From Proteromonas lacertae (taxonomy: Eukaryota), in the NCBI GenBank assembly GCA_002245135.1, contig NGBS01001181.1, forward strand, positions 62,001-115,507: a stretch of DNA of 53,507 bases. The letters run 5' to 3'. Every line of letters starts with the position of its first letter. Position 1 is the first letter of the stretch. The position numbers and the translations under genes are program-made. The notes under the pieces were generated by a model. That model did not search any database. It saw only the letters and a list, made by a program, of their open reading frames with translations, and was not told where the DNA came from. Of this stretch, positions 12,879 through 53,507 are shown one piece after another.

Positions 12879-13310
12879 TTATTTCTTTATTTTCATAGAT
12901 TCAAATTTTTGAATAGCTTCTTCAATTGATGATATCTTCTGCTCTAATGCACTAATTTTCTCACTTGTGGCATTTCTAATATTCTCAGGTACTTTTGTTT
13001 CATAATCGGCTATTTCAGTCTTCTTCTTTGTTACATTCAATTGATTCGTTGTTTGTTCAAGTGTTGCTTTTAATTTACCAATTTCTACATCAAAATCAAC
13101 CAAATTTGCTAAATCCATATGAACTTTTATAAATTCATTTGTAATTGAAACACCACAAGTTACTGGAATTTCTTTCATTTCTTTATCAAATATAATTATA
13201 ATTATAATATTATTTTTATTAGCTTGGAAAAAAACTTCTTTAGCTTGTATGAATAAGTGATAATAGAAGAGAAATATGCTAATTTAAAGTATTTTGAAGA
13301 ATTGTTTTCA
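12879..13310 (-). pseudogene. Orphan 3' fragment of valyl-tRNA synthetase (C-terminal coiled-coil tRNA-binding arm)
   Basis: CGVSITNEFIKVHMDLANLVDFDVEIGKLK...DYETKVPENIR...EKISALEQKI matches the ValRS C-terminus. The upstream frame is broken, and the next gene ends at 13365, leaving no room for the catalytic domain. Confidence 0.7.
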
Positions 13311-17813: not shown

Positions 17814-20800
17814 ATGCCATACAAAAATTTCAATGAGAGAAATGTAAAGATAAGAAATAGAAGTATATTTGAATATAATATAGTCATATCAATAGGACAG
17901 GATGATAATTATGATTATTATAATAGAAGATCACCTTCAAGAACAAAAAACAATTTAAGAGAGGATAGAATATCTTTTATTTATTTTTAAATGATAATTA
18001 ATTTTCTTTAATATAATAATCAAGAAGTAAAGAAAGAAATTATCAAACTATCATTCAACCTACTCCAAGTTTCAATCGTTTCAAATCAAAAGATGAACCA
18101 ATTATTCTTTATAAGCATAAATCACAGACTGATGTAGTTAAGCCACCAATTCAACTTAAATCAAGAGAATTGGATGATAAACCATTGATATTAAATTTTC
18201 CATATGTTAGAATTAAAGATTTTATTTCACCTTATATAAAATATTTTCCTAAATTAGCTGACCATCCATGGCAATTTATTCAAAAAATACCAAAAATCAG
18301 TTTGGAGTAGATGGTATAATTCAACTTTAATGCCAGAAGGAAAACAACAGTTAATGTATATATATATATATATATAACATATATAGTACATATAATAATA
18401 ATAATATATTTACAATTGGATTAAGTTATTTATGTAAATCCAATTTACTTCATATATCATTATATCATGAAGTCAAAAGTAAGATGTTAGATTTTTATGT
18501 AGAAGATGAAAAAAGTGAATATTATTGTATGATATATGAACATCAAAAGGATTATCAAATTCCTGATAAAAAAGTAGATGTAACTAAAATTTCTGAAGTA
18601 AAATCACAGTTTTCATCTTACTTACAGTCATGTCTAGATTGTATAATTGTCTATTTTGATATTAATCCAAAAATATTAAGTTTATTTGGTATTTTAGATT
18701 TACCAAATGTACATTTAAGAGACATATCATATTTTCCACCAATTTGTTATAAGCATTTTGTTTTACATACTTCAACTATATTAGATGCGTTTTTCAATTC
18801 ACAGTATAGAGAGATATTAACATTTACAGATTCAGAATTAAGTTCTGATAATTCAATTGATATATTAAATAGAAGTTTAAAAAAAGCTGAACTGAATTAT
18901 AATAGAATAGTGGCTAATATTGCGTATATATATATTTAATCTTTCTATATTTATGTTAATTAAGTAGTGATTATTATGTTGTTACTTTAATAATGAAAGT
19001 TACTAGTAAATATTCTTTAATTGGTCAAGGATTGGATAGAAATGAATTTACTGCTTTGAACATTGCTGCTGAGGATTTAATAAGAAATGTTTTTGGTAAA
19101 ACTGAAGTGTTTTTGAAAAGAGAAACTGTAAATAACATGAATAAAAAAGGTATAATATATATTAGGATATGTATTAATATTATAAAAATAAAAATAGTAT
19201 TATTTGAGCCATTATTGACAATAACAGACCATAATTTAATGTTTTATATATATTTATCATACAAAGTGATATGGGAACAGTATTTAGGTTTTTTTACTTC
19301 ACCAAATACACAACAATATAACACAAATACAAATTCTAACAGCAATAGTAATAATACTTCTAGTAACAGTAATAATGAGAGATATAATCCTTATAATTCA
19401 AGTTTTTATAAACCACATGAGTATGAATATACGTCATTAACAAATAGATGTTTTGAAAATGATGCTAATACTATTCAAATTCAATCAATTCAACAAACAC
19501 CACCTAAACCATCACTTTATTCACATTCAAATTCACCTTATAGTGAAGTGTATTATATATATTTAAGTTGATATTGTTATTTAATATATTTATAGCCAAG
19601 CAATATACGGTGGCTATTCTTTAAGTCAACAGAAAGAATATGTTTCACCAAGTTTCATAAATACAATACAAACTCCACCAGTAGAAATACCAATTCAACA
19701 ACAGATACAACCACAGCAAACAATACAGACAATTATGCCAATAAAATCAATACAACAAATGCAACAACCTATTCAGCAACAAGTACAACCTATACAATCA
19801 CCAACTTCTCAATTTAAATTAGTATTTATATTGATAATATAACACAAATAGAACAAATTAATGCTGGCTATTAATTTTGATTCATTTCTTTCAGAAATAG
19901 TTATTAATCCCAACCCTGATATAACTAATATAGCCAATTATCTTATTATTGCTGATCCACAATTGATATATCAATTGAATTATTTAAATGGCCATAATGG
20001 TTTTATAAAATACAGATCTGATTTGATTTCAATTCTTTTCTACACTGTCATCTTTTTATGATTTTATAATTTTCACTGAACATGATCCAAATTTTGTTAT
20101 TCCTTTAGTTAGTGTGTTCGATCCTACACAGTATATGCATATATATTCTAATTTATTTCAATAGTTCTTTTTTCCATAATACAGTTTTACAAGTCACACC
20201 AACATCTAAATCATTTGAATCTATTGTGTCGTTTTTGACTAATAGTTATGGAAATGAATATATAGGATGTAATATCAATATATTATCTCAAAATTTGGTA
20301 TTATAGTGTTTATATATTTGTTTATTATAGATTATTCTTGATGATAGAATAGATTTATGGAAATATAGTAATGATATTAATATTCAACCATTTTGTGAGT
20401 TTAGTATTATATCAATCAGAGTATTGCATTTCTTTAACAAAATCAAAGACTTAGAAATAGTATATAATATATATATATAATAATCTATAGCCACAATCTA
20501 GAAAAATGTATGTTGATAGAGATAAACATTATATTCAAAGTGTTTCTGATGCTTTGATTTTAGTATTTTTTATTAATGTAATTTATACTTTATTATAGTG
20601 TGCAAATGATACTTATATTACAAAAGATATTGTTTCTGAGTTTATTATTGATAATAAATGTGATATAAGAGTATCTATACAAAGAACTAGGTTGAAAGTA
20701 TTGAAAGGATGTGTAATTTTCTTTGGTAATGTATATTTCGTTATATATAAATGTTGTTAGATATTTTCACCTACTGAAGACTGTACATTAAATCCTTTAT

Positions 20801-20994
20801 GGATAGATGCAGAGCATTTTGGAGCAAAATGTGTAAAGACTCTATCTCAAGAGGTAACTCACATTGTTTCAAATCCAAAGTATGATGCATCTTCATATAA
20901 GAGATTGAATACATTCTTAGTTACTCTAGACTGGTTAGAAATGTCAATTTGGAAATGGTCAAGAGAACCAGAAAAAAAGTATTTAGTGTTATAA
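17814..20994 (+). CDS. Composite protein: RS-like N-terminus, degenerate REX4-like exonuclease, dsRBD-like domain, Q/P-rich linker, degenerate FCP1-type CTD phosphatase, BRCT
   Basis: FCP1-like motifs KLMLAINFDSFL, FIKYRS, YDFIIFT...VFDP and IILDDRIDLW. BRCT: VLKGCVIFF...AEHFGAKC...VTHIV...VTLDWLEMSIWKWSREPE. dsRBD-like: LIGQGLDRNEFTALNIAAEDLI. The model needs an AT-AA intron (17970-18019) and a 1-nt frameshift at about 20036. Confidence 0.65.
17970..18019 (+). other. Putative U12-type AT-AA intron (50 nt)
   Basis: Starts ATATCTTTTA, contains an in-frame TAA, has TTCTTTAAT at 18004-18012 and ends ATAA. There is no GT or GC between 17896 and 18026. Removal gives in-frame REDR|SRSKER. Confidence 0.65.
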
Positions 20995-21175
20995 ATATTA
21001 AGTGTGTATAATTTTAATTTATACTCAAATGTGTTAATTGAGTTGTTTTTAATGAAATAAAATTCTGGTCAATGAAAAGTATTTTTGCACCACATTTCGT
21101 TTTTATTTTTTAAAATCATTTTTTCTAATCTAATTCAATATATTTAAACTAGATTTATAATTATTCGATACATAA

Positions 21176-30100: not shown

Positions 30101-30479
30101 AGAAGAATTACAGATATTGGTTTAAATGCAATAAGTGAAGCTCATTCTGGCTTAAGAGTATTAAATGTTGCTTATTGTGCTAAATTAACTGAACAGTGCA
30201 TTAACAGATTATTCCATAAGTGTGAACATTTGATGTCTTTGGATGTATCTTCGTGTCCACAAATATCTGAACAATTTTGTCAATTGTTGAAACAAATGAG
30301 AGTTGGAGTATATTTTATTATTGTTTATATATTATATATAGTTTATAATTACATATAATACTGGATTGAGAAGTGAAGTACAACTATCAAGAGATGAAAA
30401 GTTGGAAAGTGTTCCAGATGTTCCAAACACAGAATCTCTTTCTAATTTAGATATTGCTAATCTTCAAACAACTCAATAA
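21176..30479 (+). CDS. Giant (about 3000 aa) multidomain protein: MGxxxS N-terminus, coiled coils, IQ motif, Clu domain, LamG-like domain, AMN1/FBXL-type LRRs
   Basis: Spliced start MGTSQSNLSG; IQ AIKIQACYRGFLGKK; Clu-like PLQLNIDYLGFRL...DLEGYKGIDNEYYLLNFNRLLPPE...LRPEL and EFHRRGISMRHLG. LamG-like FSLECWAK...NEWTHLFFTYDGTMAKLYVN, then many LxxLxLxxCxxLTD repeats. Seven short GT-AG introns; stop TAA at 30477-30479. Confidence 0.8.
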
Positions 30480-33426
30480 ATTAGTTATTTCATTTTAGTT
30501 TGTGTGTTTTTAATTTATTGAAAAAATGACTGTTTTGTTTCTTTCAAGTTTTGGGCTTGAGAGTTAGATTTTTGTTTTTTTCTAAATTTACACAATAGCA
30601 AATTATATTCTAGTCTCGCATATAATATAAGTTATCAAAAAATGAATAAATCAAAACAAAGTATGGTTAATATTTATTTGTCATTTAGCTTATCATTATG
30701 GAGTAGATTTTGGAGGAAGGAATTGTGTAATATCAGAGTATAATGGAATTAATTGTCAGATAAAAGAAAATGCATATAGTGAGAGATTAACATTGTATTT
30801 TTACAGTTGTTATTTATAGTGTTGGATTAGTTACAGATGGAATAAAACTCTATTATGGAAGAGCTGCCAAAACAAATGTATATATATGTTTGATATTTTT
30901 AGTTAATTCGCTTATATAACAATTCAGCTTGTGAATTGAAAGAATATCTTGGTAAATACATTGTTGATGGTTTGAATATCCAAACTGAGAATTATAAATT
31001 CTATCCAAGTGAAGTAAAAATAGATAAAAATGGTTTATGTTTTAAAGTATTTTTTCTTCTTTATTTATCTATTTATTTAGTTGCCTAAATTGAAATTTAA
31101 TGATTTAAACTGTAGTGATGGATATTTTGCATGTGATACATTATTTGTATTGTTAATGAAATATTTGAAAGAAACAATGATGAAAGAAGGAAATGAAGTA
31201 ATAATATGTCATCCATGTTATTACAATGAAAAACAAATCGAATATATAAATGAATTATATAAAGTATGTGAAATGAAAGTTCTAAAGAATATTCCTGAAT
31301 ATTTAAGTGCGAGTTTATGTTTTGGATATGAAAACAACAATAAATTGAATGAAAATGAAGAGAGAATTGTTTTATTATTAGATATGGGTTATATAAACTG
31401 TAGTAGTACAATAGTAAAATACAAGAAAGATGAATGTGAGATATTAAGTCACAGTTATAACAATGATAAGATTGGAGGTCGATATATCGATAATTTATTA
31501 GTAAATGCTTTGATTGGAAAAATGGGTATGAATATAGATAATATAAGTGAAAAATTATATGTGAAAGTGAAAGAAGAGATAATAAAGATGAAAGAGAAGT
31601 TAAGTGCAAGTGGAGCTGATACAATTCATATAAGTATTGATGATGGTGATAATGATTATGAAAGTGATTACAGTGTAAATGAATTAAATGAAATATTGAA
31701 AAATAATGGAATAAATACCAAAGTGATTGATATAATAAAAGACAGTATTGTAAACAGTGGTTTAATAGAAGAAGAAGATAATAAGAAATTAGAGATAGTG
31801 ATAATAGGAGGAAGTTTAAGAATTCCTTTAATTCAAAAAGAGATAGAAAATTATGTAAAGAGTGAGTTAGATAATGATATAAATTTAAATCGAACAATAA
31901 ACATGGATGAATGTATGAGTTTAGGTAATAGTTATTATGGATTAATTCAAAGTGGAAAATGGAGATATTCATATAATGAAAAGAAAATAATAATCCATCA
32001 AATAGAATCTTCTTCCAGATTAAATAATGACAAATGTAATAACACATGGAATGTAAAAGAACGAATTAGTAAAATATATGATACAATCAAAAGAATATGT
32101 AAAAATGAATCAATAGTTCAAAAATGTGCTTCATTAAGAAATGAAATAGAAGGAGAATGGTATATATAAAGATAATCATATTATTATTATTATTATTATT
32201 ATTAGTTATTATCTACAACATTTATTAGAAGATAATACAATTATAAATACAGATGAGAATAAGAATGAAATAAGTGAAGTATTAAAGAGAGTAAAATCAA
32301 AGAAATTAGTTGATAATAACAATTATGATGAAATTGAAGATTTGTATAAGAGAATACTGATAAAAAAGCTAAACTTAATAAGTGAAGTATTTAGAAACAA
32401 GTACAAAAAAGAGAGTAAAGTATCTGCATATTTAAAAGACATCAATAGAGAGAATAAAATGAAGAATATATATATTGAAAAGATTAAAGAAAAATTAAGT
32501 ATTGTTGAAGATGAGATGAGAAAGTATGAATTAATATTTTTCTTTTGTAGTATGAATATTTTAAGAGGAAGACATAAAACGGGTGGATATAATTCTACTC
32601 CATCACCTTCTAATTCAAATAACCCTGTTCCAATTCCTGTTTTAGATAACAATATTATTTTGAATAAAAGAAAAAATAGTTCTCCAGTGAAAAATATTGA
32701 TCCACCGTATAATATTCTATTTATTGTTGTTATTTGATTTAGACCACTCCCAATGCCTCAACATCATCAAGAAGAGATTGATAATTTGATTAAAGAATTA
32801 GAATCTTGTATAAACCAATTTCCTGAATATCCAAACATCAGAATGATTAAAAAACAAATTGAAAAGATAAAAGCATTACCTTTATCATCAATTGAATATA
32901 ATACTCAATTCGACAAACTTTCTTCAAGATTGGAGAATTTTAAAGTATAATTTGTTATTTTTAATAATGATAGATATATATCAGTGATTATAACAACCAA
33001 AGAAATGATTGTATAAAAAGAATAACAGAAATGATATGTGGAGATGGTAATAAGAACAGACTGAATTCTGATGATATGAATCGAATAATAAGACTAATAA
33101 ATGATGAAAATTATCATTCATTACAAGAATATAAAGATATAATTAGTCAATTAACAATTCACAAAAATAGTAGAAATATGATAAATGAATCACCACCAAA
33201 ATCTTCAAATAGAGATAATAATATAGAAGAAGGAATTAATAAAGTATTGAAGCAATTAGATGATTATATGAAGAAAAATCCATATTCTCCTAAAATGAAA
33301 GAAATAAAAAGAAAAATGGAAGAAGCAAATAAACAAAACAATCCAGTTGTTAGATTTGCTCAACTTCAACAAATATTGAATGATTTAGAAGAAAATGATA
33401 ACTCCTACAAAAATAACGATAAAAAT
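25802..33426 (+). repeat. Left arm of large inverted repeat (>=7.6 kb)
   Basis: Reverse complement of 45896-53507. Mirror ORF pairs sum to 79322 (31081/48241, 29384/49938). Confidence 0.97.
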
Positions 33427-36288: not shown

Positions 36289-37885
36289 ATAATAATTATA
36301 AATCTAGGTTGGATGTTATATATGTTTTTATATAAAAAAATATATTCGTTTCATTATTTCCCTCCATTTCTTTTTTCTATTGCTATATACTTTATTTAAT
36401 TATTAAAACTAGATTTTCATGACAAATGCCTATTGATCATTACGGTGTAGACGTGGGAGGAAGAAAAATCACCCTCTCTACATATAATGGTATAAACTGT
36501 AAGATAGTGGAGAATACATATAGTGAAAAATATTCAGTGTATTTTTAATATATTAATTTTAGTGTTTGTATTGTATGGGACAATAGGTCCTTTAAATTTG
36601 GTAAAGCTGCTTTTTCTGTTGTATATTAACTATTTTTATATTTAAGTATACTAGAAATTGTAAAAAATCAGCAAAAGAGTTAAAAGAATACATAGGAAGA
36701 TATATTCCCAGTCATATTGAATTATTAGAGGATGAATGGATATACAAACCTTCACATGTTGAAATTCAAAATAATGCATTATGTTATGAAGTATATCTAA
36801 TGTTATATCGAAATAGATGTCATGTATCTTTAAGGATTTAAACTGTAGTGATGGATATTTTGCATGTGATACATTATTTGTATTGTTAATGAAATATTTG
36901 AAAGAAACAATGATGAAAGAAGGAAATGAAGTAATAATATGTCATCCATGTTATTACAATGAAAAACAAATCGAATATATAAATGAATTATATAAAGTAT
37001 GTGAAATGAAAGTTTTAAAGAATATTCCTGAATATTTAAGTGCGAGTTTATGTTTTGGATATGAAAACAACAATAAATTGAATGAAAATGAAGAGAGAAT
37101 TGTTTTATTATTAGATATGGGTTATATAAACTGTAGTAGTACAATAGTAAAATACAAGAAAGATGAATGTGAGATATTAAGTCACAGTTATAACAATGAT
37201 AAGATTGGAGGTCGATATATCGATAATTTATTAGTAAATGCTTTGATTGGAAAAATGGGTATGAATATAGATAATATAAGTGAAAAATTATATGTGAAAG
37301 TGAAAGAAGAGATAATAAAGATGAAAGAGAAGTTAAGTGCAAGTGGAGCTGATACAATTCATATAAGTATTGATGATGGTGATAATGATTATGAAAGTGA
37401 TTACAGTGTAAATGAATTAAATGAAATATTGAAAAATAATGGAATAAATACCAAAGTGATTGATATAATAAAAGACAGTATTGTAAATAGTGGTTTAATA
37501 GAAGAAGAAGATAATAAGAAATTAGAGATAGTGATAATAGGAGGAAGTTTAAGAATTCCTTTAATTCAAAAAGAGATAGAAAATTATGTAAAGAGTGAGT
37601 TAGATAATGATATAAATTTAAATCGAACAATAAACATGGATGAATGTATGAGTTTAGGTAATAGTTATTATGGATTAATTCAAAGTGGAAAATGGAGATA
37701 TTCATATAATGAAAAGAAAATAATAATCCATCAAATAGAATCTTCTTCCAGATTAAATAATGACAAATGTAATAACACATGGAATGTAAAAGAACGAATT
37801 AGTAAAATATATGATACAATCAAAAGAATATGTAAAAATGAATCAATAGTTCAAAAATGTGCTTCATTAAGAAATGAAATAGAAG
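31102..37885 (+). repeat. 1051-bp near-identical direct repeat (31102-32152 vs 36835-37885); a third, inverted copy lies at about 47170-48220
   Basis: Identical protein translation over about 350 aa; the adjacent exons are clearly diverged. Confidence 0.95.
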
Positions 37886-40800
37886 CAGTAATGTATTAAT
37901 AAATTATATATTCATATAGTTATGATAATAGAAGAGAAATAGAATCAGAATTAGAAAGTGATGAAAAAAGGGAATATGAAACATATTTGAATGATGCTTT
38001 AGTGTGGGTGAAATCAAAAGAAGTTATTGATAAAAATGATGTGAATGAATTGGAGAATAGATTAAAAACTCTTAAAAATAGTAAATATCCTCAAATTATA
38101 GTTGAAGATGATAAAAAGGAAGAGGATGATGAAGTTAGTTACTTAATGAATATACTTTTAGATTATATGGAACAATATCCTCATTATTATCAATGTAATG
38201 TTATATCAGCACAAATAGAGAGTATAGCAAACCATGAAATGGATATTGAGTCATCAAAAGATAAGTTAAAGAAGTATATTACAAAATATGAAGTATAATA
38301 ATCGTTATTTTATTGTACTAGAAATATATTGATAATTATTTGTCTTCAAGAAATGATATAATGAAGAATATATCTCAAGAATTGTATATTGTAAAGTTTA
38401 TATTCTTTTTATAATAGAAATGATCTATTTAGAAAGATGTATGTTACAGTTCAGAATCCTGATAATCATATGAAAATAATTCATAATACAACTTCATTAT
38501 TGAAAGATGAATCTACAAAAAGACCACTTTCTGATTATAGTAATTTAAAAAGTGAATTGGCTGTTTTAAAGAATCAATTGAAGTATATATATTTTGGAAT
38601 ATATATGTTATTATAGACCAAGTAAGTTGTTGGAAGATATACAGAATAATGTAGATTTAGAAAGCAAAAGTGATTATGCTATACAGATTAAAGAATTGTT
38701 GAATAAATCATTTGATGAATCTAAATTAAGTGTAAGGTATAATAAATTGAAGATATTATATGGTAAATATATGGAAAGTGTGTTAAGTGATTTAAAGAAT
38801 GAGTTGAATAAGAAATACAATGATATTAACGAATTATTGAATAATAATAAGAATATACAAATAACAGAAGACGAACAATCAATAGTTGATGAATATATAA
38901 AACTAAAGAATAATGAATCAATAAAGAATATAGCTACTATGAAAGTAATAAATAATCAATTAGAAACAATTATTAGTGAATTAAATATTAGACTAGAAAA
39001 AGAAAAGAATGAAATTGAAAAGATAAAAGCCAAAATTGAACATTTGAAAGATTTAATGAGACATTATTCTGACAATCCTAAAAATGTTGAAATTAAATCG
39101 TATATAGAATCAATAGAATCCAAATCAATACCAATATCAGATTCAATAATCGTAATATCAAAATTAGAAATATATAATAATAAAATTAAAAGCTATATAA
39201 ATGAAATAGAAGTTAAAAAATCGAAGATGAAAAATGAAATAGATGATTTATATAATGAGTATAAGAGTTTGTGTAATAAAAATGAAGATATAATAAACAA
39301 AGAAATGATAAAAGTAATCGAAGAGTTAAAATCTTCAATAAAAGATTATTCATTAAATGAATATGAAGACATGAAATGTCGATTAGAAAAAGAAATCGAA
39401 CAAATAAAAGAGAAACAAAAACTGGAAAAAGAAAAAGAGGATAAATTGAAAGAACAGTTATTAAAAGAAGTGTATAGTATTGAAAATCTATTAAATTATA
39501 GGGAAATATGTCATACGCTTGAAAAGGAAGATAGAATGAAATATTTTCCGAAGTTGGAAGAGATTGAGAAAGAAATAAATGATGATAATTATAATATCAA
39601 ACATAGTATTCAAGCATTTGAAGAATGGATTAAAGTATTAAGAAATAATAAGAAAAACTATAAAGAAACTGAAATAGAAGTTAATAAAATAAATGAAGAG
39701 GAAAATGATAAAACCAATGAAAGTGAAGAAGATAAAAGTGTAGAAGTAAAAGACAAAGAAAATGAAGTAGAAATGTATATGGATAAAGAAAAAGAATTGG
39801 AAAATAAGACAGATCTAGTTATATTAGAAAATGAAAAAGGGAAAGAATTAGAAGAAAAATATGGGAAAGAATACAATAAAAAGGAAGAGTATATTGAAGT
39901 ACCAATTAAAATAGAAGAAATAATCAAAGTTGAGAATAATGTTAATATAGGTGATAAAGAGATGGTAGAAGTAGAGACAAAAGAAGCATTATCTAGAATT
40001 GATAAACAGAACAGTACTTATAAAGAAGAAGAATTAGATAAAGATGAAATTAACAAAGATGAAATCCTAGATGAAAGAGAAATAGATGATGATAATGAGG
40101 AGGAATTGAATGATAGTGACAGTGTAGAAAAACTAGTAAAAAATGAAGAAGATAAAGATGATGAGGAAGTTTTATCATCATCAGAGGAAGAAATAGATAA
40201 TGAAAAAGAAGAAATAGATGATGAAGGAATAAATAAAGTAATAAAAAGAGATGATGATGTAATGAAGTTGAGTGATGATGATGTTATTGATGATTTTGAA
40301 AATAATGAAAGTGATAGTTATTCTAGCAGTAATAGTAGTAATAGTAGTAGTGAAAAATCTGAAGAAGATGAAGATATTGATGATGATACAGACAATGCAG
40401 AAGTTGAATCTACTATCCACTCATCTGTCTCTTTAGTTTCAGATATTAAATATCACTCATTAAATGATGGATCTATTTCTTTTTCAATACCAAAAGTTGG
40501 TATTAACAATAACAGTAAGGAATCAAGTCAATTAAATAGTGTAGATTTATCTATACAAAACTATGATAATTCAAATACAACAACTGAATTTTCTACAACT
40601 ACATTTTCTTATTCAGATGACAAAATTCAAAACAATACTAGAAAAGATAATTTGTCTTTTCAGATTGCTTTTGAAATAAATTTGAAAAGCTATAATGAGA
40701 GTTATATAAATAGAAATGAAGCAAAAATTAATTATTTATATACAATTCCAGAAATTAAAAAAACATCTAGAGAAATACACAAATCAAGATATGATTATTC

Positions 40801-41448
40801 TCCATTACATACTTTTACTCCTGTAAAATATAATGCAAACAACATTCAAAACAATGAAGATATGAGTAGATATTCTACTCCAAGATTATATAAGCGCTGT
40901 GATGAAGAATATTTATACATTAATCATCCAGCCAATTCAACCTCTTCATCAAGTAGTGTTTGTTCTGATAGTTATTCATATGATTCAGCATGTCCTTTGT
41001 ATAATAATTATGATATGAGTAATTCAACTACATACTCATATTATACTCCATCCTCATCTTCTACTTCATCTTATAGTAGTTCATTGAATAGTAAACCATA
41101 TTATTATCATACTGACAAATATAATTCTACAAATTCAAACTTTATTAAACCAAAGAATATTTATAAAAGAAAAGTTTATGATGATTTACCTAAACATGAA
41201 TCCAATCCAAAAATAAAGTGTGAACCTCCATATAGAAGAATATCTGACATAAAAGAATCTTCAACAACAATAAAAGTAGATAATTTCAAACATAAATGGC
41301 TAAGTACCGATAATACTCTCAGAAAAAAACTAAATTATTTTGCATCATACAAATATGATATTGTATATACATTTTTATATCTTTCTCTATTTATAATAGG
41401 TTTATTTAATGTATAAGGATTTTAAAAAAGAAAATAGTAAATATTAAT
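36426..41448 (+). CDS. Divergent HSP110/HSP70-NBD protein B with coiled-coil, acidic and Ser/Tyr-rich tail
   Basis: MPIDHYGVDVGGRKIT start and the same NBD exon as gene A. Lid-like YETYLNDALVWVKS; short introns link it to the 940-aa ORF. The 3' end depends on a probable intron at 41363-41399. Confidence 0.7.
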
Positions 41449-41546
41449 AAATAATTGCTAATTTGTTTGTAATGTATTTAAATTCTTGTGATTTTGGTTA
41501 TAAATATGAATGAAAATAGATATTTAAAAATTGAGGTAAACCAAAA

Positions 41547-41558
41547 TTTTCGCGCCAA
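41547..41558 (+). promoter_or_regulatory. E2F-type element TTTTCGCGCCAA just upstream of the PrimPol ATG
   Basis: Matches the E2F consensus TTTSSCGC. A CGCGCC run is rare in this AT-rich DNA, and it lies 3 nt before a replication gene. Confidence 0.6.
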
Positions 41559-41561
41559 TAC

Positions 41562-43002
41562 ATGAAAAAGAGAATTATTCAGCCTACAGAGTACATATTC
41601 ATATATTACATACGGTTTAGGTTTTATGATCATTCTGAGATAATAATTAAACCATGTCCTGTTAGTATTGCTAAACCTTGTAGTAGATATTCGCCAACAT
41701 TCTACCCTTTACAGTCTCAAGCATTTGAAGAATATGATAGGAGAGAAAATGAAAATATAAAAGTATTATGGATAGCAATTATTCATTTAGGTGTTTTCTA
41801 GAGAAAATAGCGAGAATGGGAAAAGAGAGTTTTTTGTTGCTAATGAAGAAGAGTTTTGGAAATTTTACGATAATGAAGATATCTTTTTTAAATAGATTAA
41901 GTAATTCTTTAACTTATATAAATCCAATAGAAAGGCATTATTACGAGATAATAAAGGAGAATACACCTTGCAGACTATATTTTGATTTAGAAGTATTATA
42001 TATGTTTCTATATTACTTTAATAGTATGAAAAAGAGTTTAATGAAAGTGTAGATGAGAATAAACTATTAAATGATTTCTATTATTCAGTAAGCTCTGCAC
42101 TATTTTCTTTATTTGACATATATATAAATCCAAATAATTTTGTTCCATTATGTTCATCAAGAAAAGAAAAATTCAGTTATCATTTTGTTATTCATATGAA
42201 TGAAAAAATACTATTTAAATCAAATGTAGAAATAAAATCATTTATAGAAGAACTCTATAATAATTATTCACTACCATCTCTATGGGTAAATGGTAAAGAT
42301 GGTGATAATAGTGTTTATGTAATTGATAAAAATGTATATACAAAGAATAGAGCTTTTAGATTGTATTTGTCATCAAAGTATAATAAGAAACAAATACTAA
42401 CAACTCCTCCAAATATGGTTAATCCTTTGATATTATCATCAGAAGAAAGATTATCATTTTTCAAAAAGACATTAATTACAGATTTTTGGGATAAAGAAGA
42501 ATTAAAATCATTTAAATTATTGGATTATAAACATCATTTAGAATATAAAAATCCAATAATTGATAATAGAATTAATAGTGTTAATATATCTAATGATAGT
42601 AATTCTAATACAATTATCAATAATAATAATTTAATTTTTCAACCTCTAATCGATTATATATTAAACACTTTTCGTAATGGTGAAGCAAAACAATGTGATT
42701 CATATATTAGGAATTGGGTTTGTACTTATACTGAAAAGATATGTTTTATTGTACTGAATATTGAGAAGTACAGATGGTGTGGTAATATCAATAGATGGCA
42801 TAAATCTAATCATATATACTTTGTTGTGGATGTCAGTTATGGATGTTATTATCAGAAGTGTTATGATGTTGATTGCTCGAATTATAAATCAGAAGCAATT
42901 CCATTAACTCAAGATATTCTTAAATTGACAATTAATAGTCTACGAAAGTATTTTTGTGAGAATAAAATAGAAATTCCTTTAAATATTCAGAATATTACTT
43001 AG
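41562..43002 (+). CDS. PRIMPOL: DNA-directed primase/polymerase PrimPol (AEP family with UL52-type Zn finger)
   Basis: RHYYEIIKENTPCRLYFDLE (motif I DxE), KFSYH (motif II), VIDKNVYTKNRAFRLYLSSK (motif III) and Zn finger RWCGNINRWHKSN...YQKCYDVDC. Four introns, one of them AT-AA. Confidence 0.93.
41879..41921 (+). other. Putative U12-type AT-AA intron (43 nt) in PrimPol
   Basis: Starts ATATCTTTTTT, contains an in-frame TAG, has TTCTTTAAC at 41905-41913 and ends ATAA. Removal gives GKREFFVANEEEFWKFYDNE-D-PIERHYYEII, matching PrimPol FWxxY...H-x-YE spacing. Confidence 0.75.
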
Positions 43003-43094
43003 TATGAAGTTGTATTAACAAAACAACTCAATAGAATTCTAAATTTGTTAATTACATTAAAATAAGTTAATATGGTGCTGTGTTTTTTCTTTTT

Positions 43095-46000
43095 TTATAC
43101 ATTCCTTTTATATTATTGTGATTAATATTCTTTGGTGTAGTTTTTTTCTTTGACATTTCCTAAAATTATATAAATGAGTTATTCATTATACTTTTACTTG
43201 CATTAGTAATGTATTTAAGGCTAAATAAATATCTTGCAAATGTTCTTTTGTCTTTTCATTTAATTTATTCCCTTTTATTAATGAATTTTTGTTAGGAAAT
43301 GATCTTATTATATTAGGAATTTCTACTCTATCTTTTATTGCCACATCCTGTAACAATGGTTCTAGATTTAGTATTTTTTTCTTTATATCATCGATCAGTT
43401 TAATTTTATCAATATCTACATCTATTTCAGATATATTAGATTTATTTTCTTTTTGTCTTTTAGGAGATTGAATTATCTAAATTATATATATTATTACAAA
43501 TACTCCTTCTACATCATTTCTTAATGATATAACAGCTTCAAGCTTTTTATCTAGTGTTATTTCTGAATCTTCTCTCAATTCATCTCCAATTGTTAAATCA
43601 CCATTTCTTTTTCTTAGTATGTCTGGTATTGTTATTCTATCTTCTAGATGATATGTTTTTATTTCTAGTCTTATATACTTTCTAAAATATAATATTACTA
43701 AATCAATACAAATGTCTTTTTATTTCATCTATAATGTCAAATTTTGTTGATGGCTATAAAACAAATAAGAATTGATATTTATACAGAAGATATTTTCCTA
43801 TTTTTGATAATCCTATCCTTAATACTATCATTTTTTGGTGTTTTAATCTCAATCTTTATAATCTCATCATGATTTGCTTTTAATGGAGTGTTATTCTTAG
43901 ATCTTGGAGTTTTTTTTTGTTTAATATATAAATTGTTCTTTATATTATTTTTTATTTTCTAAACAGAATTATAAAATGAGTTAATTATACTTCTATTTCT
44001 TTCATCAAATCATCTAATTGAATTATCTTAGAGTGTAATGACTGGTTTGTATATTTCTCTAAATTGTTTCCTTCAATTAATTGATTTGTCTTTTTATTCA
44101 GCAAATCTGGATTTATTTTTACTTTTCTTAATATACTGTCATTTTTTAATTCTTCCTTCACAATCTTCAATTTTTCATGTATTTCATTTATCAATTTTCT
44201 TTTTATATCTAATATAATATCTATCTCTTTTATATAATCATCACTCTCATTCAATAATCTATCCAAATCACAATTTGATATTTTTGTTGAAATTTTAGAC
44301 TTTAAGTAAACAGGAATTTCTATTTCTTCATTTAAATGTTTATATTTCTCACAATAACCTAAAATTCCCTTTCTAAATCAATAAAACATACGAAAAATAC
44401 ATCCTTTCATTTAATATTATTATCTTTCTCATTCTTTCATTATTTTCTTCATTATTTTGAATGGTGTTGTTATTTGCTTTTATTTCATTCTTATTTGTTG
44501 CTGATTCTCTGTAATTTTCTTTTAATATAACCTATATCATTATTTTATACAATAAGACAAAATACTGGCAATTGTTTCATCAGTTTAATGACTTTATTAT
44601 ATACTTCATTAATTTTATTATTATTTGGTAGTTTTTTACCAACAATTAATCTACCAGTTTTCTTGCATATTAAACTCTTATCGATATGTAAATCTTCATA
44701 TGGGATGATATTATTATTTACCATAGAGTGAATAAAAAACCTATTAAATTTAAAATGTAAAAACAATACAAATTTGAAATAATTATATCACTTCTCTTTG
44801 TCATTATATTCTTTTCTTCTTCCTATTTATAAAATAGTAAATAATATAATACAATTATTACATCTAAACAATTAATAGTTTTATTGATTAGATTTTTAAC
44901 ATTTGAATATACCATATTCTTTAAATCTCCATAATCTTTCAATTCTTTTAAATAGTTCTTTATTTCTTTTTTGTCACTCAATTGAAGGTTAATTCTACAT
45001 AATTTATTAACAATTTCTCTATAAATTATAGGTGAAATAATGAAAATACTTAAAACACTCTATGATAGTAATTAACTTATCAATATTTTGATTATCTTCG
45101 TTTATCTTATTTATAACTTCTATTTGTTGGTTATTATTATATTTTATTTTCTGCATTTCAGAGCCATTATTAACAATTCTTTCATTTTTCTTAATATTCA
45201 TGATAGATGTCATTTCATTAATCACATTATCATAATCACTTAACGGATATTGTTCATCTTTATACACCATATCTTTCGCCATTCTAATAACATCCTCTTT
45301 AATTAGTTCTGGATTACTGTTCTTGTTAAATCTATCAAAATAGATATATATTAGGATATACTCAACTAACAAATTATTCAATTTTTCTTTTTTTTCCTTT
45401 TGTTTCACATTATATTCAATAATAAATTTCTAATAAGTACAGAATATTTAATAGTTATACTTCATATTTCTCTAATTCCTTTGATAATTTCTTATGTTGA
45501 CTATCATATTCACTATCATTTAATGGGACTTGTTTATTTTGGTTAATTTCTGCTTTTAATATATCAATGGAAGAATAAAATGGATAATTCTTCATATTTG
45601 ACTCTAGTTTATTTATTAATGCTTGTATTTCAGAATGTTTACGTGAAATATCTACATTTGGAGAACATTCTTTTAGATAATTTGGTTGAGTATTACTTCT
45701 CTTTTTTAAACCTTTTATAACCTTATCATTCTTTATGGCATTTCTATTCTTACCATCTTCACATCTAGCATCAATATAATTTTGGTTAGTTTTGGGAGTA
45801 TGTAACTCATTCTTCTGATAATCATTCTTTAATATTACATTCTTTATGATATGATCTTTCATAATCAGATTGTCATTATGTTTAATAATTTCTAAATTTT
45901 TATCGTTCTTTTTGTAGGAATTATCATTTTCTTCTAAATCATTCAATATTTGTTGAAGTTGAGCAAATCTAACAACTGGATTGTTTTGTTTATTTGCTTC

Positions 46001-48680
46001 TTCCATTTTTCTTTTTATTTCTTTCATTTTAGGAGAATATGGATTTTTCTTCATATAATCATCTAATTGCTTCAATACTTTATTAATTCCTTCTTCTATA
46101 TTATTATCTCTATTTGAAGATTTTGGTGGTGATTCATTTATCATATTTCTACTATTTTTGTGAATTGTTAATTGACTAATTATATCTTTATATTCTTGTA
46201 ATGAATGATAATTTTCATCATTTATTAGTCTTATTATTCGATTCATATCATCAGAATTCAGTCTGTTCTTATTACCATCTCCACATATCATTTCTGTTAT
46301 TCTTTTTATACAATCATTTCTTTGGTTGTTATAATCACTGATATATATCTATCATTATTAAAAATAACAAATTATACTTTAAAATTCTCCAATCTTGAAG
46401 AAAGTTTGTCGAATTGAGTATTATATTCAATTGATGATAAAGGTAATGCTTTTATCTTTTCAATTTGTTTTTTAATCATTCTGATGTTTGGATATTCAGG
46501 AAATTGGTTTATACAAGATTCTAATTCTTTAATCAAATTATCAATCTCTTCTTGATGATGTTGAGGCATTGGGAGTGGTCTAAATCAAATAACAACAATA
46601 AATAGAATATTATACGATGGATCAATATTTTTCACTGGAGAACTATTTTTTCTTTTATTCAAAATAATATTGTTATCTAAAACAGGAATTGGAACAGGGT
46701 TATTTGAATTAGAAGGTGATGGAGTAGAATTATATCCACCCGTTTTATGTCTTCCTCTTAAAATATTCATACTACAAAAGAAAAATATTAATTCATACTT
46801 TCTCATCTCATCTTCAACAATACTTAATTTTTCTTTAATCTTTTCAATATATATATTCTTCATTTTATTCTCTCTATTGATGTCTTTTAAATATGCAGAT
46901 ACTTTACTCTCTTTTTTGTACTTGTTTCTAAATACTTCACTTATTAAGTTTAGCTTTTTTATCAGTATTCTCTTATACAAATCTTCAATTTCATCATAAT
47001 TGTTATTATCAACTAATTTCTTTGATTTTACTCTCTTTAATACTTCACTTATTTCATTCTTATTCTCATCTGTATTTATAATTGTATTATCTTCTAATAA
47101 ATGTTGTAGATAATAACTAATAATAATAATAATAATAATAATATGATTATCTTTATATATACCATTCTCCTTCTATTTCATTTCTTAATGAAGCACATTT
47201 TTGAACTATTGATTCATTTTTACATATTCTTTTGATTGTATCATATATTTTACTAATTCGTTCTTTTACATTCCATGTGTTATTACATTTGTCATTATTT
47301 AATCTGGAAGAAGATTCTATTTGATGGATTATTATTTTCTTTTCATTATATGAATATCTCCATTTTCCACTTTGAATTAATCCATAATAACTATTACCTA
47401 AACTCATACATTCATCCATGTTTATTGTTCGATTTAAATTTATATCATTATCTAACTCACTCTTTACATAATTTTCTATCTCTTTTTGAATTAAAGGAAT
47501 TCTTAAACTTCCTCCTATTATCACTATCTCTAATTTCTTATTATCTTCTTCTTCTATTAAACCACTATTTACAATACTGTCTTTTATTATATCAATCACT
47601 TTGGTATTTATTCCATTATTTTTCAATATTTCATTTAATTCATTTACACTGTAATCACTTTCATAATCATTATCACCATCATCAATACTTATATGAATTG
47701 TATCAGCTCCACTTGCACTTAACTTCTCTTTCATCTTTATTATCTCTTCTTTCACTTTCACATATAATTTTTCACTTATATTATCTATATTCATACCCAT
47801 TTTTCCAATCAAAGCATTTACTAATAAATTATCGATATATCGACCTCCAATCTTATCATTGTTATAACTGTGACTTAATATCTCACATTCATCTTTCTTG
47901 TATTTTACTATTGTACTACTACAGTTTATATAACCCATATCTAATAATAAAACAATTCTCTCTTCATTTTCATTCAATTTATTGTTGTTTTCATATCCAA
48001 AACATAAACTCGCACTTAAATATTCAGGAATATTCTTTAGAACTTTCATTTCACATACTTTATATAATTCATTTATATATTCGATTTGTTTTTCATTGTA
48101 ATAACATGGATGACATATTATTACTTCATTTCCTTCTTTCATCATTGTTTCTTTCAAATATTTCATTAACAATACAAATAATGTATCACATGCAAAATAT
48201 CCATCACTACAGTTTAAATCATTAAATTTCAATTTAGGCAACTAAATAAATAGATAAATAAAGAAGAAAAAATACTTTAAAACATAAACCATTTTTATCT
48301 ATTTTTACTTCACTTGGATAGAATTTATAATTCTCAGTTTGGATATTCAAACCATCAACAATGTATTTACCAAGATATTCTTTCAATTCACAAGCTGAAT
48401 TGTTATATAAGCGAATTAACTAAAAATATCAAACATATATATACATTTGTTTTGGCAGCTCTTCCATAATAGAGTTTTATTCCATCTGTAACTAATCCAA
48501 CACTATAAATAACAACTGTAAAAATACAATGTTAATCTCTCACTATATGCATTTTCTTTTATCTGACAATTAATTCCATTATACTCTGATATTACACAAT
48601 TCCTTCCTCCAAAATCTACTCCATAATGATAAGCTAAATGACAAATAAATATTAACCATACTTTGTTTTGATTTATTCAT
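43095..48680 (-). CDS. Divergent HSP110/HSP70-NBD protein A' (5' half near-identical to A, distinct 3' half)
   Basis: Mirror of 30642-33426, followed by a unique multi-exon tail with canonical short introns, ending ...NIKRNV-TAA at 43095. Confidence 0.7.
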
Positions 48681-51600
48681 TTTTTGATAACTTATATTAT
48701 ATGCGAGACTAGAATATAATTTGCTATTGTGTAAATTTAGAAAAAAACAAAAATCTAACTCTCAAGCCCAAAACTTGAAAGAAACAAAACAGTCATTTTT
48801 TCAATAAATTAAAAACACACAAACTAAAATGAAATAACTAATTTATTGAGTTGTTTGAAGATTAGCAATATCTAAATTAGAAAGAGATTCTGTGTTTGGA
48901 ACATCTGGAACACTTTCCAACTTTTCATCTCTTGATAGTTGTACTTCACTTCTCAATCCAGTATTATATGTAATTATAAACTATATATAATATATAAACA
49001 ATAATAAAATATACTCCAACTCTCATTTGTTTCAACAATTGACAAAATTGTTCAGATATTTGTGGACACGAAGATACATCCAAAGACATCAAATGTTCAC
49101 ACTTATGGAATAATCTGTTAATGCACTGTTCAGTTAATTTAGCACAATAAGCAACATTTAATACTCTTAAGCCAGAATGAGCTTCACTTATTGCATTTAA
49201 ACCAATATCTGTAATTCTTCTACAATAACTTAAATCTAACAATTCAATCCATGATTTATTAGACAAATTAAATAATGCTTGATCGGTTAATAAACGACAA
49301 TGACCTAAATATAAACTATCAATTGTATATAACTTGTCAGAAATAACTTCTACTGATTTGTCTGTTATTTTTCCTAAACCAGTCAAATTCAACTTTTGTA
49401 ATTGTACAAAACTATTAACTAACAATTCAATATCTTCATCATCAAAATTAAGACAATAAGAAATATCTAAATAAGTAAGAGTTTCATGTAATATTTCATT
49501 AGCACATAAATATTCAATTGATTTACTAGTTAATCTTCTACATCCTGATAATATCAATGTTTTTAATTGATTACATCTTTCAGATATTCCATGTATTGTA
49601 TCATCTGTTAGTTGATGACAATCTGTTACATCTAATATTAATAAACTTGCAAAGAAATTCTCTTTTGATAATGGTCTATCATCAATTAATGGATTATAAA
49701 AGAATGATGTATCTGTAATACTATTCAACTCAGCAAGATTCAAGTGTGTAATATGCCATAGTTTATGAGAAATATAAACTGTACCATTATCAGTAACAGA
49801 ATTGCAATGACTAATATTCAATACTTGAAGGTTTGTAAATGTCTTTGATAATGATATTATTGTTTCATCTGTGACTCTGCTACAGCCTGATAGATCTATT
49901 ATATTCATATAACTTGGTATTATTGTATTAATCATATTCAATAAACCATTATCTGTGATTTGTATTGACCACTATAATATAATATAATATATATATATAA
50001 ATATACTTCAATTTTTAATGTTTTTAACATAGAACAATTCTTTCCAATTGCATCTAATGTAAGATCAGTTATACTTCTCATATTGTTCAAATTCAATTCT
50101 TCCAAAAATTGGCAACTTTGTACAACAGGAATAACACCTTCATCAGTTACTAAACTACACTTTTCAAGACTCAAATTCCTCAAATTGTGAAGATTAGCAA
50201 TATACTGAACACAAATATCATTCATAAGTGGACAATTATTCAAAACCAACGATTCTAATTTTTGACACCTTTTCGCTAAGAAAGCAACAGATTCTTCAGA
50301 AACATCATTACAACCTGATAAATTAAGATGTTCAATTCCATGTAAGTTATTACTCAATATATCAATCTCATGAACAGAAATATCAGACATATTTGGTAAT
50401 TCTAAATCTCTTAAACTCATTCCTTGTATCACAGTATGAATAATATGTGTAACTAATCGAGGAGTAGTTAAACTATTAACCCAATCTAAACTAGTATTTC
50501 TACCATAATAAGTTGGATTAATACAGACTACATTTTGAATCATACTTGCACCTACTTCACTGTATTTTGGATCAATTCCATCAGATAATAACATAAACTT
50601 TTCAGGTAATTTTCCTAATCTTTCAACTGAATCATCATAATAATGTGAATTCAATTTCATTAATAAGAAATAACCTTCATAGACAACATCACAGTATAAT
50701 GGATCAGCAGGTAAACCATCTAATAAAGCAGCAATACCATCTTCAATGTGTGTATCATAGAAGAAATGAATTGCTTTCATTACATCTGCTTTATATTCAC
50801 TTTGATCTTCATATCTTGTTGAATCTAAACTGTAATGAGCACATAATGCTTTAGCATAATCATCAAGAATTAATTTGTCATTTGGAACTTTTCTCAAAGC
50901 TAATTTGAATCTATCACTAGCTAACTTGTAGAATCTTCCTATTTCTGTTGAATTATCTTTAGTTCCCAATATAAAATGATGTTTAATATGTGTTCTATCA
51001 ATTGTATCTGTATATACAGCAACATGACATAATTCACCTTCGAAAAAGTCACTTCCTTCTGTCTCATTCTTTGAGGGAGTTTGAGCACCAATGCAAAATG
51101 GAATTTTTAACTTTTCAATTGCTTTTGTTTCATATTCTCTTGTGATTTCACCTCTTCTTGTTTCATTTTTTCATATTTTCATGAACTCTTGCTTTAATAG
51201 ATGTTTCTAATTCTGTAATAACTGTTCTTTTGCTAATCTCAATGCTTCACCCATCAATAGTTGGGGTGGTAATTTATCTTTGGATTTGCCTACATCTATT
51301 GATTCTAATATTGTTGGTTTATCTTCATCTATCTCACTTTGCATTGTTACTTGATTCACATGATCTGGAGCTGATTCTGTTATTTCTGCTGCTTTCTTTG
51401 TAGTTTGTTCTGTCAATGATCTTCCTACTTTAGATTGAGTTGCATTTCTTTCCTTCATTCTTTTCTTTCTATATTTCTCTTTTCTATTAATTTCTTTGCT
51501 ATTGTTTCTAATTCTTTCTTACTGGATGGTTGATCTAGTCTTTGTCCTTCTATTTCTCTTGCTTCATCAATTTCATGTTTTGCTTCTTTTTCTTCTTCTA

Positions 51601-53507
51601 AATCAATAGCTTGAAACCTTTTCTTCAATTTATATTCTTGATCAACAACTGCTTTTTTGAATAATTCATCAGAATATACTGATGTTACTAATACACTATT
51701 CACATACAATTTAGCCATTGTTCCATCATATGTAAAGAATAGATGAGTCCATTCATTATAAATGATTGTTGGACCAGTTAATGTGATTGTAGTTAAATGA
51801 ACAGCAGAAGTTAAATTACAACACCAAGTATCATTTTTTGAAGCATATAAACAATATCTACCAGTACATAATATAACTCTTTTAGTATTTCACCTCCTTT
51901 CACTTTAGCCCAACATTCCAAACTGAAACATGTATTATTATTCAAAGGATTTAAATTATCATTATATCTATAATCAATTCTTGTCTTATTAGCGGCGCTA
52001 AAACCAAATGCAACATTATTCTGTTGGGATATATTACACAATGTACAAGGTATTTGCTTAGCTACTCCTTGTGTTATATTACCCATCAATTGTGTTCCTG
52101 TTGGACCAACATTATGTGCAAACTTTGAACCAGCTAAATCATCTAATTTCCAATAACCGAATGGATGATCTGATAATACAACATCTGAATAAGAAGTAGT
52201 CTTCTTCTTCTCTGCCATTTTTTACTAATAACTTACCTTGTGCATATTCTAATAAATGAATACTGTGATATACTACTGGTAAACAACTATCAATATCAAC
52301 AACAGAAAATACAAAATTCTTTGGATTTTCTTCCAATGATTCTTCACATGTTCTAGTAATTGTAAATCCAAGACTGTCTAATAATGATAATATAAATATT
52401 AGTCAAATATGGCTCAATTATTTTAGTGATATTGATTGATTCTTTTACAGTTAATGATCCTGGTCCATTTTGAATCTAATGCTAGAGTTACTTCATTTTC
52501 CCACCATTCTTCACTTCCTTCACCACTTCCTGTAATTAAATTCAATATATAAACTAAAGTATCCTTTGCTGCATCTACATTTGGATTTCCTAAATGTAAA
52601 CATAATTCCCTTGTATAATGACGAATTAATTGTTTCACTGTTCTTATAATCATTTCAACTAACAATACAATTCTTACTTCTTCAGAGTTACTGTCATCTT
52701 CTACTTCACCTGCATAAATCTTTTGATTAAATGAATTTGCACTATCAATATGTTCATTAACAGTAATCATATCAGAAGTAAACACACTATTTGCAGAATC
52801 AGATATTGTATAGATATGGCCATTTACTTTTATCTATAAATAGAAATAAGTAATAATGATTACATATATATATATTTCACCTGGTTCTAATTCTAAAGTC
52901 AAATCACAAGTTGTTTTGAATTGTGTACTTTTAAATGAAGGAGTTACAGTTCCATCTAATTGTCTCCAGAATTGTTTTCTTAAGAATCCTAAGTGCCTCA
53001 TACTAATACCTCTTCTATGGAATTCATGAGTCCAATCTAATTCATATATATCTTGTCCTTTATGGCATAATTCATTAGCAAACTGTGGGAATAATTTCTT
53101 TGATTAATTTTCTTGTCAATTCACTAGTTACTTCATTATTCTCTTCAGTATCTGGAGCATCATGTGAAAAACCAGATAAACTATCAGATGATAATGGTTT
53201 TGAATAATCCTATACAAATAATAATTAATAATTAATAATATGAATGAATATACACAAACTAACTCAGGTCTTAAAAATCTCCAAAATATACTAACACCTC
53301 TTGGTTGTAATGGTAAATGAGGTGTTTCATATGGATCTTCTGGTGGTAATAATCTATTGAAATTTAACAAATAATATTCATTGTCAATTCCTTTATAACC
53401 TTCTAAATCAGCTGATAATGGAATATGTTTGATTGTCAAATCATGAATGCCTTTGACTATATGATCTTTCAAATTCAATTTCTTTGCTACAGAGAATAAT
53501 TTACCTG
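45896..53507 (-). repeat. Right arm of large inverted repeat (runs to the window end)
   Basis: Colinear reverse complement of 25802-33426. There is no net indel up to about 50900, then a net 13-nt loss by the window end. Confidence 0.97.
48843..53507 (-). CDS. Second, partial copy of the Clu/LamG/LRR gene (3' part); frameshifted beyond about 51100 (sequence error or pseudogene)
   Basis: The LRR ORFs are near-identical to 28354-30358; the upstream part is broken by single-base indels, mostly in homopolymers. Confidence 0.7.

What the first reader, a model, noticed from the sequence alone, without database searches (positions are those of the whole stretch)
41879..41921. AT-AA intron with U12-like signals in PrimPol: candidate AT-shifted minor-spliceosome intron class
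Seen: the frame ...FWKFYDNE hits TAG in ATATCTTTTTTAAATAG and resumes in another frame at PIERHYYEII. Excising ATATCTTTTTT...TTCTTTAAC-TTATATAA (43 nt) restores it exactly. Established: U12 introns have 5' RTATCCTT, a TTCCTTAAC branch site near the 3' end, and usually AT-AC or GT-AG termini; AT-AA is a rare variant. Inference: here C->T shifts in both motifs and an AA terminus recur in both non-canonical introns of the window, so AT-AA may be the norm in this lineage, in unusually short introns. An alternative in-frame GT-AG intron (41853-41895) exists, but it deletes the conserved FWxxY and has an atypical GTTTTG donor.
Basis: partly seen in the sequence, partly recalled or inferred. Interest (0 to 1): 0.85.

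Follow-up and report, generated by a model that had tools for sequence, protein, structure and literature searches.

The report
AT-AA minor intron in protist PrimPol
A 43-base interruption in a DNA primase-polymerase gene of a very AT-rich protist carries the signals of the rare "minor" intron class but ends in AA instead of the usual AC, as does the only other such candidate nearby, so it is likely cut out by the minor splicing machine and hints, on two cases only, that AA ends may be common in this organism.

Summary
Confirmed. Removing 41879-41921 (43 nt, AT...AA) gives an open 435-aa PrimPol whose motif spacing equals the commonest spacing in homologues (61 of 80); the GT-AG rival loses the conserved Trp and scores 7.6 bits lower. 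A second intron of the same build lies at 17970-18019. The strict pattern hits twice against 0.04 expected. Genome style (25.6% GC, GT-AG introns of about 32 nt) suggests a low-GC Blastocystis-like stramenopile; this is inferred, not shown. Much is already known there: Blastocystis ST1 has 346 short minor introns, and its published list shows a loose last base (of 120 read: AC 71, AG 42, AT 4, AA 3), including one ATATCTTT...AA intron. So neither the length nor the class is new. What differs: both introns here have T at +6 (ST1: 3 of 339) and end in AA (Fisher p 0.0002 and 0.001), pointing to a lineage-wide AT shift, but n = 2 in a window picked for this. No RNA, genome or snRNA data were reachable. 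The scan noted mostly-AA minor introns before, in Rozella (unchecked note).

The parts
41879..41921 (+). U12-type (A-type) intron, 43 nt, AT-AA, phase 1, third intron of PrimPol
   Evidence: frame restoration and homologue spacing; splicing itself not shown
41879..41886 (+). 5' splice site ATATCTTT (consensus ATATCCTT with T at +6)
   Evidence: sequence; compared with ST1 list
41905..41913 (+). branch-site motif TTCTTTAAC (consensus TTCCTTAAC with one C to T), 8 nt before the intron end
   Evidence: sequence; branch use inferred
41920..41921 (+). 3' terminal AA
   Evidence: only in-frame end with penultimate A within 8 nt of the branch motif
41562..43002 (+). PrimPol (primase-polymerase) gene, exons 41562-41590, 41621-41762, 41791-41878, 41922-41992, 42025-43002; 435 aa; start codon least certain
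   Evidence: PF03121 E 9e-9; homologues named DNA-directed primase/polymerase
41591..41620 (+). major GT-AG intron 1, 30 nt
41763..41790 (+). major GT-AG intron 2, 28 nt
   Evidence: alignment to homologues across it
41993..42024 (+). major GT-AG intron 4, 32 nt
   Evidence: relative P0001 reads through this site
17970..18019 (+). second U12-type candidate, 50 nt, AT-AA, phase 0; donor ATATCTTT, branch motif TTCTTTAAT at 18004-18012, 7 nt before the end; in a gene (about 17814-20994) ending in a BRCT domain
   Evidence: joins an open exon to a 96-codon open frame that begins at 18020; no GT or GC in 17896-17969, shortest GT-AG rival 170 nt; BRCT PF00533 E 1e-4; no homologue tested across this junction

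Best explanation
The 43 bases interrupt the PrimPol reading frame and carry minor-intron donor and branch motifs, and they are likely removed at AT...AA ends by an ordinary minor (U12) spliceosome of the kind Blastocystis has, whose signals have likely drifted towards A and T. Shown: frame break, motifs, exact restoration of homologue spacing, a second case of the same build. From established work: the U11/U12 particle reads donor and branch site together, and branch-to-end distance matters for the 3' site while other last bases are tolerated (PMC3584512 sections 4 and 8). Inferred: the acceptor is picked as the A-N dinucleotide 7-8 nt after the branch motif, so the last base is weakly constrained (ST1 uses all four) and has drifted to A under strong AT pressure (major introns here hold 3.7% C); the two C-to-T changes would turn G-C pairs with the small RNAs into G-U wobble pairs (pairing registers recalled) and need no change in the machine, while the two Cs that remain (+5 and the third base of the branch motif) are the ones selection keeps.
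For: 43-nt removal gives the modal spacing: Trp to Tyr-Glu 14 residues in 61 of 80 homologues where it could be measured (100 regions used, 20 without a locatable Trp), and 25 from the upstream Arg motif in 64 of 88. Gapless alignment across the junction in all 6 homologues displayed. Profile score 94.1 bits (rank 11 of 2314 frame-restoring deletions; the ten above it are also 43 nt and lack splice signals), against 86.5 and 83.3 for the two 43-nt GT-AG rivals, 87.8 for AT-AG (52 nt) and 88.2 for AT-AC (52 nt, no donor motif). Two pattern hits against 0.04 expected. Build matches RNA-curated ST1 minor introns: AT start, mostly 37-44 nt, mostly 5-7 and at times 8 nt after the branch motif, penultimate A in all 123 read. 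ST1 and ST7 have all four minor snRNAs and seven specific proteins. Both Cs kept in both introns against 3.7% C in 32 major introns.
Against: No transcript, genome-wide or snRNA evidence for this organism: no genome held, no Rfam match in the window. The lineage is inferred from genome style; all close relatives found are unnamed. The intron position is not shared by any of 63 distant PrimPol loci in which the site could be read (of 81 fetched; many redundant and intron-poor). Homology alone separates the AA end from the in-frame ends 3 and 6 nt upstream by only 1.1 and 2.4 bits. The window shows single-base indels typical of long-read error in 50900-53300 and probably near 18295. Branch-to-end distance (9-10 nt from the two As) is under the human optimum of 11-13 nt.
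Confidence: 0.8

Rival explanations
1. Same intron, but the machine has changed with it: U12 (and U11/U6atac) carry compensatory A changes that read the T-shifted motifs, and AA is actively preferred.
For: Both introns share all three changes; T at +6 is 3 of 339 in ST1 (Fisher p 0.0002), which suggests strong selection for C there in ST1 and its release or reversal here. Physarum U12 has a change (GCAAAGAA) that complements a TTT branch site, at the same position as the change here (register inferred).
Against: No snRNA of this organism was seen. Wobble pairing and AT pressure suffice: ST1 has functional ATATCT donors and TCTTTAAC-type branch sites in single introns.
Confidence: 0.07
2. The AA ends are assembly errors: the true introns end in AC, or in AT with one A missing from the exon.
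For: Homopolymer indels occur in this window (13 gap openings in the 7.6-kb inverted copy; probable extra base near 18295). An AT end at 41919 lies 6 nt after the branch motif, the typical ST1 distance.
Against: The sequence as it stands gives the modal spacing; an added A would give 15 residues, seen in 4 of 80 homologues. Two independent C-to-A errors at exactly the last base are unlikely. The 978-nt last exon of PrimPol is free of frameshifts.
Confidence: 0.05
3. A major GT-AG intron (41853-41895 or 41836-41878) is what is spliced, and the U12-like motifs are chance.
For: Both are 43 nt, in frame and within the length range of the window's major introns, 24-49 nt.
Against: They remove the conserved Phe-Trp and score 7.6 and 10.8 bits lower. 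All 42 curated major introns start GTAT (the set was filtered on GTA, so only +4 is independent). Donor and branch motifs would be a double coincidence, repeated at 17970 where no short GT-AG option exists.
Confidence: 0.03
4. The intron is a relic minor intron now handled by the major spliceosome or a hybrid, or is poorly spliced and the gene is decaying.
For: Motifs have moved off consensus; A-type introns are spliced less efficiently in human cells; the major spliceosome can splice some AT-AC introns.
Against: Both motifs, their spacing and the rare Cs are kept in two genes; the PrimPol frame is intact and 79-81% identical to relatives; minor components are present in Blastocystis ST1 and ST7.
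Confidence: 0.05

Closest known systems
U12-type introns of Blastocystis ST1 (Gentekaki et al. 2017, PMC5608401: passages, S1 Table, rows of S11 Data; Larue and Roy 2023, PMC10639083: passages and section 30)
   Same: AT start, very short (median 39 bp), branch motif a few bases from the end, loose last base, about 1% of introns, among ~30-nt major introns; one listed intron (OAO13901_3, 44 nt) starts ATATCTTT and ends AA.
   Different: ST1: ATATCC in 336 of 339, AA in 3 of 120 read. Here T at +6, TCTTT branch motif and AA end in 2 of 2; spacer 7-8 nt is at the upper end of the ST1 range.
Non-canonical AT-AA / AT-AN (A-type) minor introns of animals and plants (PMC10639083 section 30; PMC8280824 passages)
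   Same: AT-AA is the commonest non-canonical minor terminus; A-type introns need CENATAC in human cells.
   Different: Non-canonical ends are only about 4% of minor introns there; the introns are longer (recalled) and the branch site lies 11-13 nt from the end.
Transformed minor system of Physarum polycephalum (10.1101/2020.10.12.336362: passages and section 15)
   Same: Donors [G/A]TATC[C/T]TTT, a TTT branch site, AT-AA is 27% of non-canonical U12 ends; U12 snRNA co-evolved with the branch site.
   Different: Physarum has thousands of minor introns, mostly GT-started, branch motif TTTGA, and AT-AC (1,830) still outnumbers AT-AA; no snRNA change is shown here.
Rozella AT-AA minor introns (scan note e1-9917809, unchecked)
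   Same: Reported as mostly ending in AA with the branch site close to the end.
   Different: Unrelated lineage; an AI note, not a publication; not tested here.

Membership tests
U12-type (minor) intron | Extended 5' splice site RTATCCTT | tested here: met
   ATATCTTT, 7 of 8; the T at +6 occurs in 3 listed ST1 introns and in Physarum donors
U12-type (minor) intron | Branch sequence TTCCTTAAC-like | tested here: met
   TTCTTTAAC at 41905-41913, 8 of 9; like variants in ST1
U12-type (minor) intron | Branch site close to the 3' end, no polypyrimidine tract | tested here: met
   8 nt after the motif; shorter than the human optimum of 11-13 nt from the branch site, within the ST1 range
U12-type (minor) intron | Removal restores the conserved protein | tested here: met
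U12-type (minor) intron | Junction seen in transcripts | not testable with these tools
   no RNA run was listed
U12-type (minor) intron | Minor snRNAs and U11/U12 proteins in the genome, and dependence on them | not testable with these tools
   no genome held; none in the window; present in Blastocystis ST1 and ST7
U12-type (minor) intron | Position conserved in orthologues (common, not required) | tested here: inconclusive
   0 of 63 readable distant loci share it; no DNA of close relatives reachable
AT-AC subtype | Ends in AC | tested here: not met
   no in-frame AC from donor 41879 up to 41949; filed as AT-AN (A-type) instead
Major (U2-type) intron of this genome | GT...AG ends, GTAT start | tested here: not met
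PrimPol (AEP superfamily) | AEP domain motifs plus UL52-type zinc finger | tested here: met
   PF03121; best named matches are PrimPols of Aphanomyces, E 1e-60 and 1e-58 in a local blastp
Blastocystis / Opalinata | Placement by phylogeny or named close orthologues | tested here: inconclusive
   close hits unnamed; only genome style (25.6% GC, intron sizes, genomic stop codons) compared with PMC12129017

The most novel reading that the evidence does not exclude
In this lineage AT-AA, with ATATCT donors and TCTTT branch sites, is the majority form of minor intron: a genome whose minor spliceosome mostly works on ends that are rare exceptions elsewhere, in hundreds of introns that standard annotation would miss, possibly with matching changes in U11, U12 or U6atac.
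Probability: 0.4. Interest if true: 0.65.

Novelty: new variant of a known kind. Interest (0 to 1): 0.45.

Why it matters
If AA ends and T-shifted motifs are the rule here, the lineage is a natural test of how far the minor spliceosome depends on the last intron base and on G-C pairing with its small RNAs, with GC-rich Blastocystis ST1 as a ready control; it would separate mutation pressure from co-evolution of the machine, so far shown only in Physarum. Practically, aligners and gene callers that allow only GT-AG, GC-AG and AT-AC would mis-model perhaps 1-2% of the introns in such a genome. If AA is merely raised, the find is a sound but modest extension of known Blastocystis biology.

Tried and rejected
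RNA runs: none was listed for 41400-43100, so no reads were laid. Rfam at gathering scores: 0 matches in the window. DNA of close relatives: metagenome scan with the close-relative alignment found 0 of 472 stretches; a wider alignment gave 80 loci kept of 254, plus 1 from the genome collection, all distant. Protein searches found only unnamed close relatives that start downstream of the junction; P0001 starts right after it on a 10.5-kb contig, compatible with an interruption there in the relative but no proof. PRIMPOL, CCDC111 and CTDP1 had 0 occurrences in the 8 supplements of PMC6717393; this says little. The ST1 PrimPol could not be picked from the intron list. My gene-structure script over-called introns and chose an impossible AT-AT path at PrimPol, so I used it only to list candidates, then filtered to 42 GT-AG introns. 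A looser motif scan gave 26 hits; apart from the two candidates all lie antisense to genes, in open frames or in non-coding DNA as read by eye. Two papers on terminal-base mutants (PMC1370826, PMC86782) are not held; I cite them only through PMC3584512 and PMC8280824. Searches that found no report of an AT-AA-dominated lineage or of minor introns in low-GC Blastocystis; PMC12129017 has 0 occurrences of 'minor' or 'U12'. The library lacks most subscription papers.

Full report
Observation. The 43 bases at 41879-41921 are as described: donor ATATCTTT, branch-like TTCTTTAAC at 41905-41913, then 8 bases ending in AA. The upstream frame runs into TAG inside them. With three short GT-AG introns (30, 28, 32 nt) their removal gives a 435-aa open frame. 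The last exon matches PF03121 (E 9e-9), and the best named relatives in a local comparison are PrimPols of the oomycetes Aphanomyces stellatus and A. euteiches. A strict pattern finds exactly two sites in the window, this one and 17970, against 0.04 expected from shuffles; the pattern was shaped on these sites.

Which junction. A profile search returned 150 relatives; 108 of the 149 beyond the close one held the motif downstream of the junction and 100 regions long enough were used to build a profile. Spacing from the conserved Trp to the Tyr-Glu motif is 14 in 61 of the 80 where it could be measured, and 25 from the upstream Arg motif in 64 of 88; a 43-nt removal gives exactly 14 and 25. Of 2314 frame-restoring deletions the proposed one ranks 11th (94.1 bits); the ten above are also 43 nt, shifted upstream, without splice signals. 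From donor 41879, in-frame ends 3 and 6 nt upstream score nearly as well (93.0, 91.7) but end in TA and TT; all 123 ST1 minor introns I read have A as penultimate base. The junction can slide by up to 2 nt without changing the mRNA, so the register rests on the donor motif.

Second case. 17970-18019 (50 nt) has the same donor, TTCTTTAAT at 18004-18012 and AA 7 nt later. It links an Arg/Ser-rich exon to a 96-codon open frame that starts at 18020; the 74 bases before the donor hold no GT or GC and the shortest GT-AG alternative is 170 nt. The gene ends in a BRCT domain. It is less secure: no homologue was tested across it, and the frame shifts again near 18295, probably an extra A in a run.

Organism. 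The window is 25.6% GC. A filtered set of 42 GT-AG introns spans 24-49 nt, median 32, all starting GTAT (filtered on GTA); 32 such introns hold 3.7% C and 5.5% G. Introns near 30 nt are typical of Blastocystis; low-GC Blastocystis lineages (21-23%, longer and more variable introns, genomic stop codons) and Proteromonas (27%) bracket this GC (PMC12129017, passages and section 5). This is a guess from genome style: every close relative found (PrimPol 56-81%, ubiquitin protease 68-90% over the region searched) is unnamed.

Comparison with Blastocystis ST1. Gentekaki et al. report 346 U12-type introns and all minor-specific snRNAs and proteins (PMC5608401, passages and S1 Table); Larue and Roy give median length 39 bp (PMC10639083). 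In the intron list (S11 Data, held cut within the ST7 sheet) 336 rows start ATATCC and 3 start ATATCT, the first and last of them in the ST1 sheet. I read 120 of the 336 (places 1-60, 151-180, 307-336) and tallied by eye: AC 71, AG 42, AT 4, AA 3. The three ATATCT rows end AC, AA and AG. So short length, a near branch site and a loose last base are established in this genus, and one intron already combines ATATCTTT with AA. Yet 2 of 2 here against 3 of 120 (AA) and 3 of 339 (+6 T) gives Fisher p of 0.0014 and 0.0002: the consensus in this genome very likely differs from ST1. How far is open: the lower 95% bound on the AA share is 22%, the chance that it exceeds half is 0.34-0.92 by the prior, and the window was flagged because it shows this.

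Mechanism. From PMC3584512 (sections 4 and 8): U11/U12 binds donor and branch site as one unit, the first three bases are read by the 48K protein, branch-to-end distance matters, and non-canonical ends support splicing, often less efficiently. PMC8280824 (passages) names the AT-AN class and shows its need for CENATAC. I infer that the acceptor is the A-N pair 7-8 nt after the branch motif, that the last base is weakly selected and has gone to A under AT pressure, and that each C-to-T change swaps a G-C pair for a G-U wobble (pairing registers recalled, not from a call). The two remaining Cs are kept in both introns despite 3.7% background C, as expected if RNA pairing still selects them. The alternative is co-evolution as in Physarum, whose U12 has a change complementing a TTT branch site and where AT-AA is 27% of non-canonical U12 ends (10.1101/2020.10.12.336362, section 15). 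Only the snRNA genes can decide.

Against. No transcript, genome or snRNA was reachable. None of 63 readable distant PrimPol loci (of 81) has an intron at this site; one, L012, has a GT-AG intron a few codons downstream (read by eye, since the script's 'broken' label misfired). The assembly shows single-base indels in the inverted duplicate near the window's end, so base-level error cannot be excluded, though the sequence as it stands fits homologues best.

Novelty. [quoted passage not shown] My searches found no paper on a lineage where AT-AA dominates or on minor introns of low-GC Blastocystis (listings only, besides the papers named); PMC11347168 (passages) notes minor introns in B. hominis; bioRxiv supplements and subscription papers were not visible. 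The scan itself holds an unchecked note of mostly-AA minor introns in Rozella and none from this genome. Verdict: a real U12-type AT-AA intron (about 0.85 that it is spliced as drawn by a minor spliceosome), a new variant of a known kind; AA as the lineage norm about 0.4; interest 0.45.

Noticed in passing
window 25802-33426 (+) and 45896-53507 (-): Inverted duplication of at least 7.6 kb, 99.6% identical; the second copy has single-base indels clustered in about 50900-53300 that break a long LRR/CLU gene, likely unpolished long-read error.
   Followed up: partly
window 36829-37929: Third copy (98%) of a divergent Hsp70-like domain also at 31096-32193 and 47129-48226; a further Hsp70 at 5794-7731.
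   Followed up: no
window 18292-18296: Frame shift in the BRCT gene about 275 nt after the second AT-AA intron; best read as one extra A in a run, or an atypical 37-nt GT-AG intron of 33% GC.
   Followed up: partly
window 12879-13283 (-): Lone C-terminal piece resembling valyl-tRNA synthetase (PF10458, E 6e-4, below cut-off), with no upstream part of the gene seen.
   Followed up: no
window 8760-12832 (+): Large gene with two P-loop NTPase-like segments (weak Pfam hits only); resembles Crinkler-type NTPase elements (recalled); a decayed partial copy at about 8120-8230.
   Followed up: no
window 3396-4487 and 4562-5669 (+): Tandem pair of 2-hydroxyacid dehydrogenases, 83% identical in part, sharing an identical 46-nt intron, which suggests gene conversion.
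   Followed up: no
window about 21170-30470 (+): Very large CLU - laminin G - LRR protein; one unnamed relative of 2804 aa at 33% identity.
   Followed up: partly
PMC5608401 S11 Data: AT-AG makes up 42 of 120 ST1 minor introns read, although reviews call that combination disfavoured and the paper's text mentions only AT-AC.
   Followed up: partly
P0001 and P0185 against window 41993-42024 and 15769-15798: Unnamed relatives read straight through sites where the window has GT-AG introns: either intron loss or transcript contigs.
   Followed up: no
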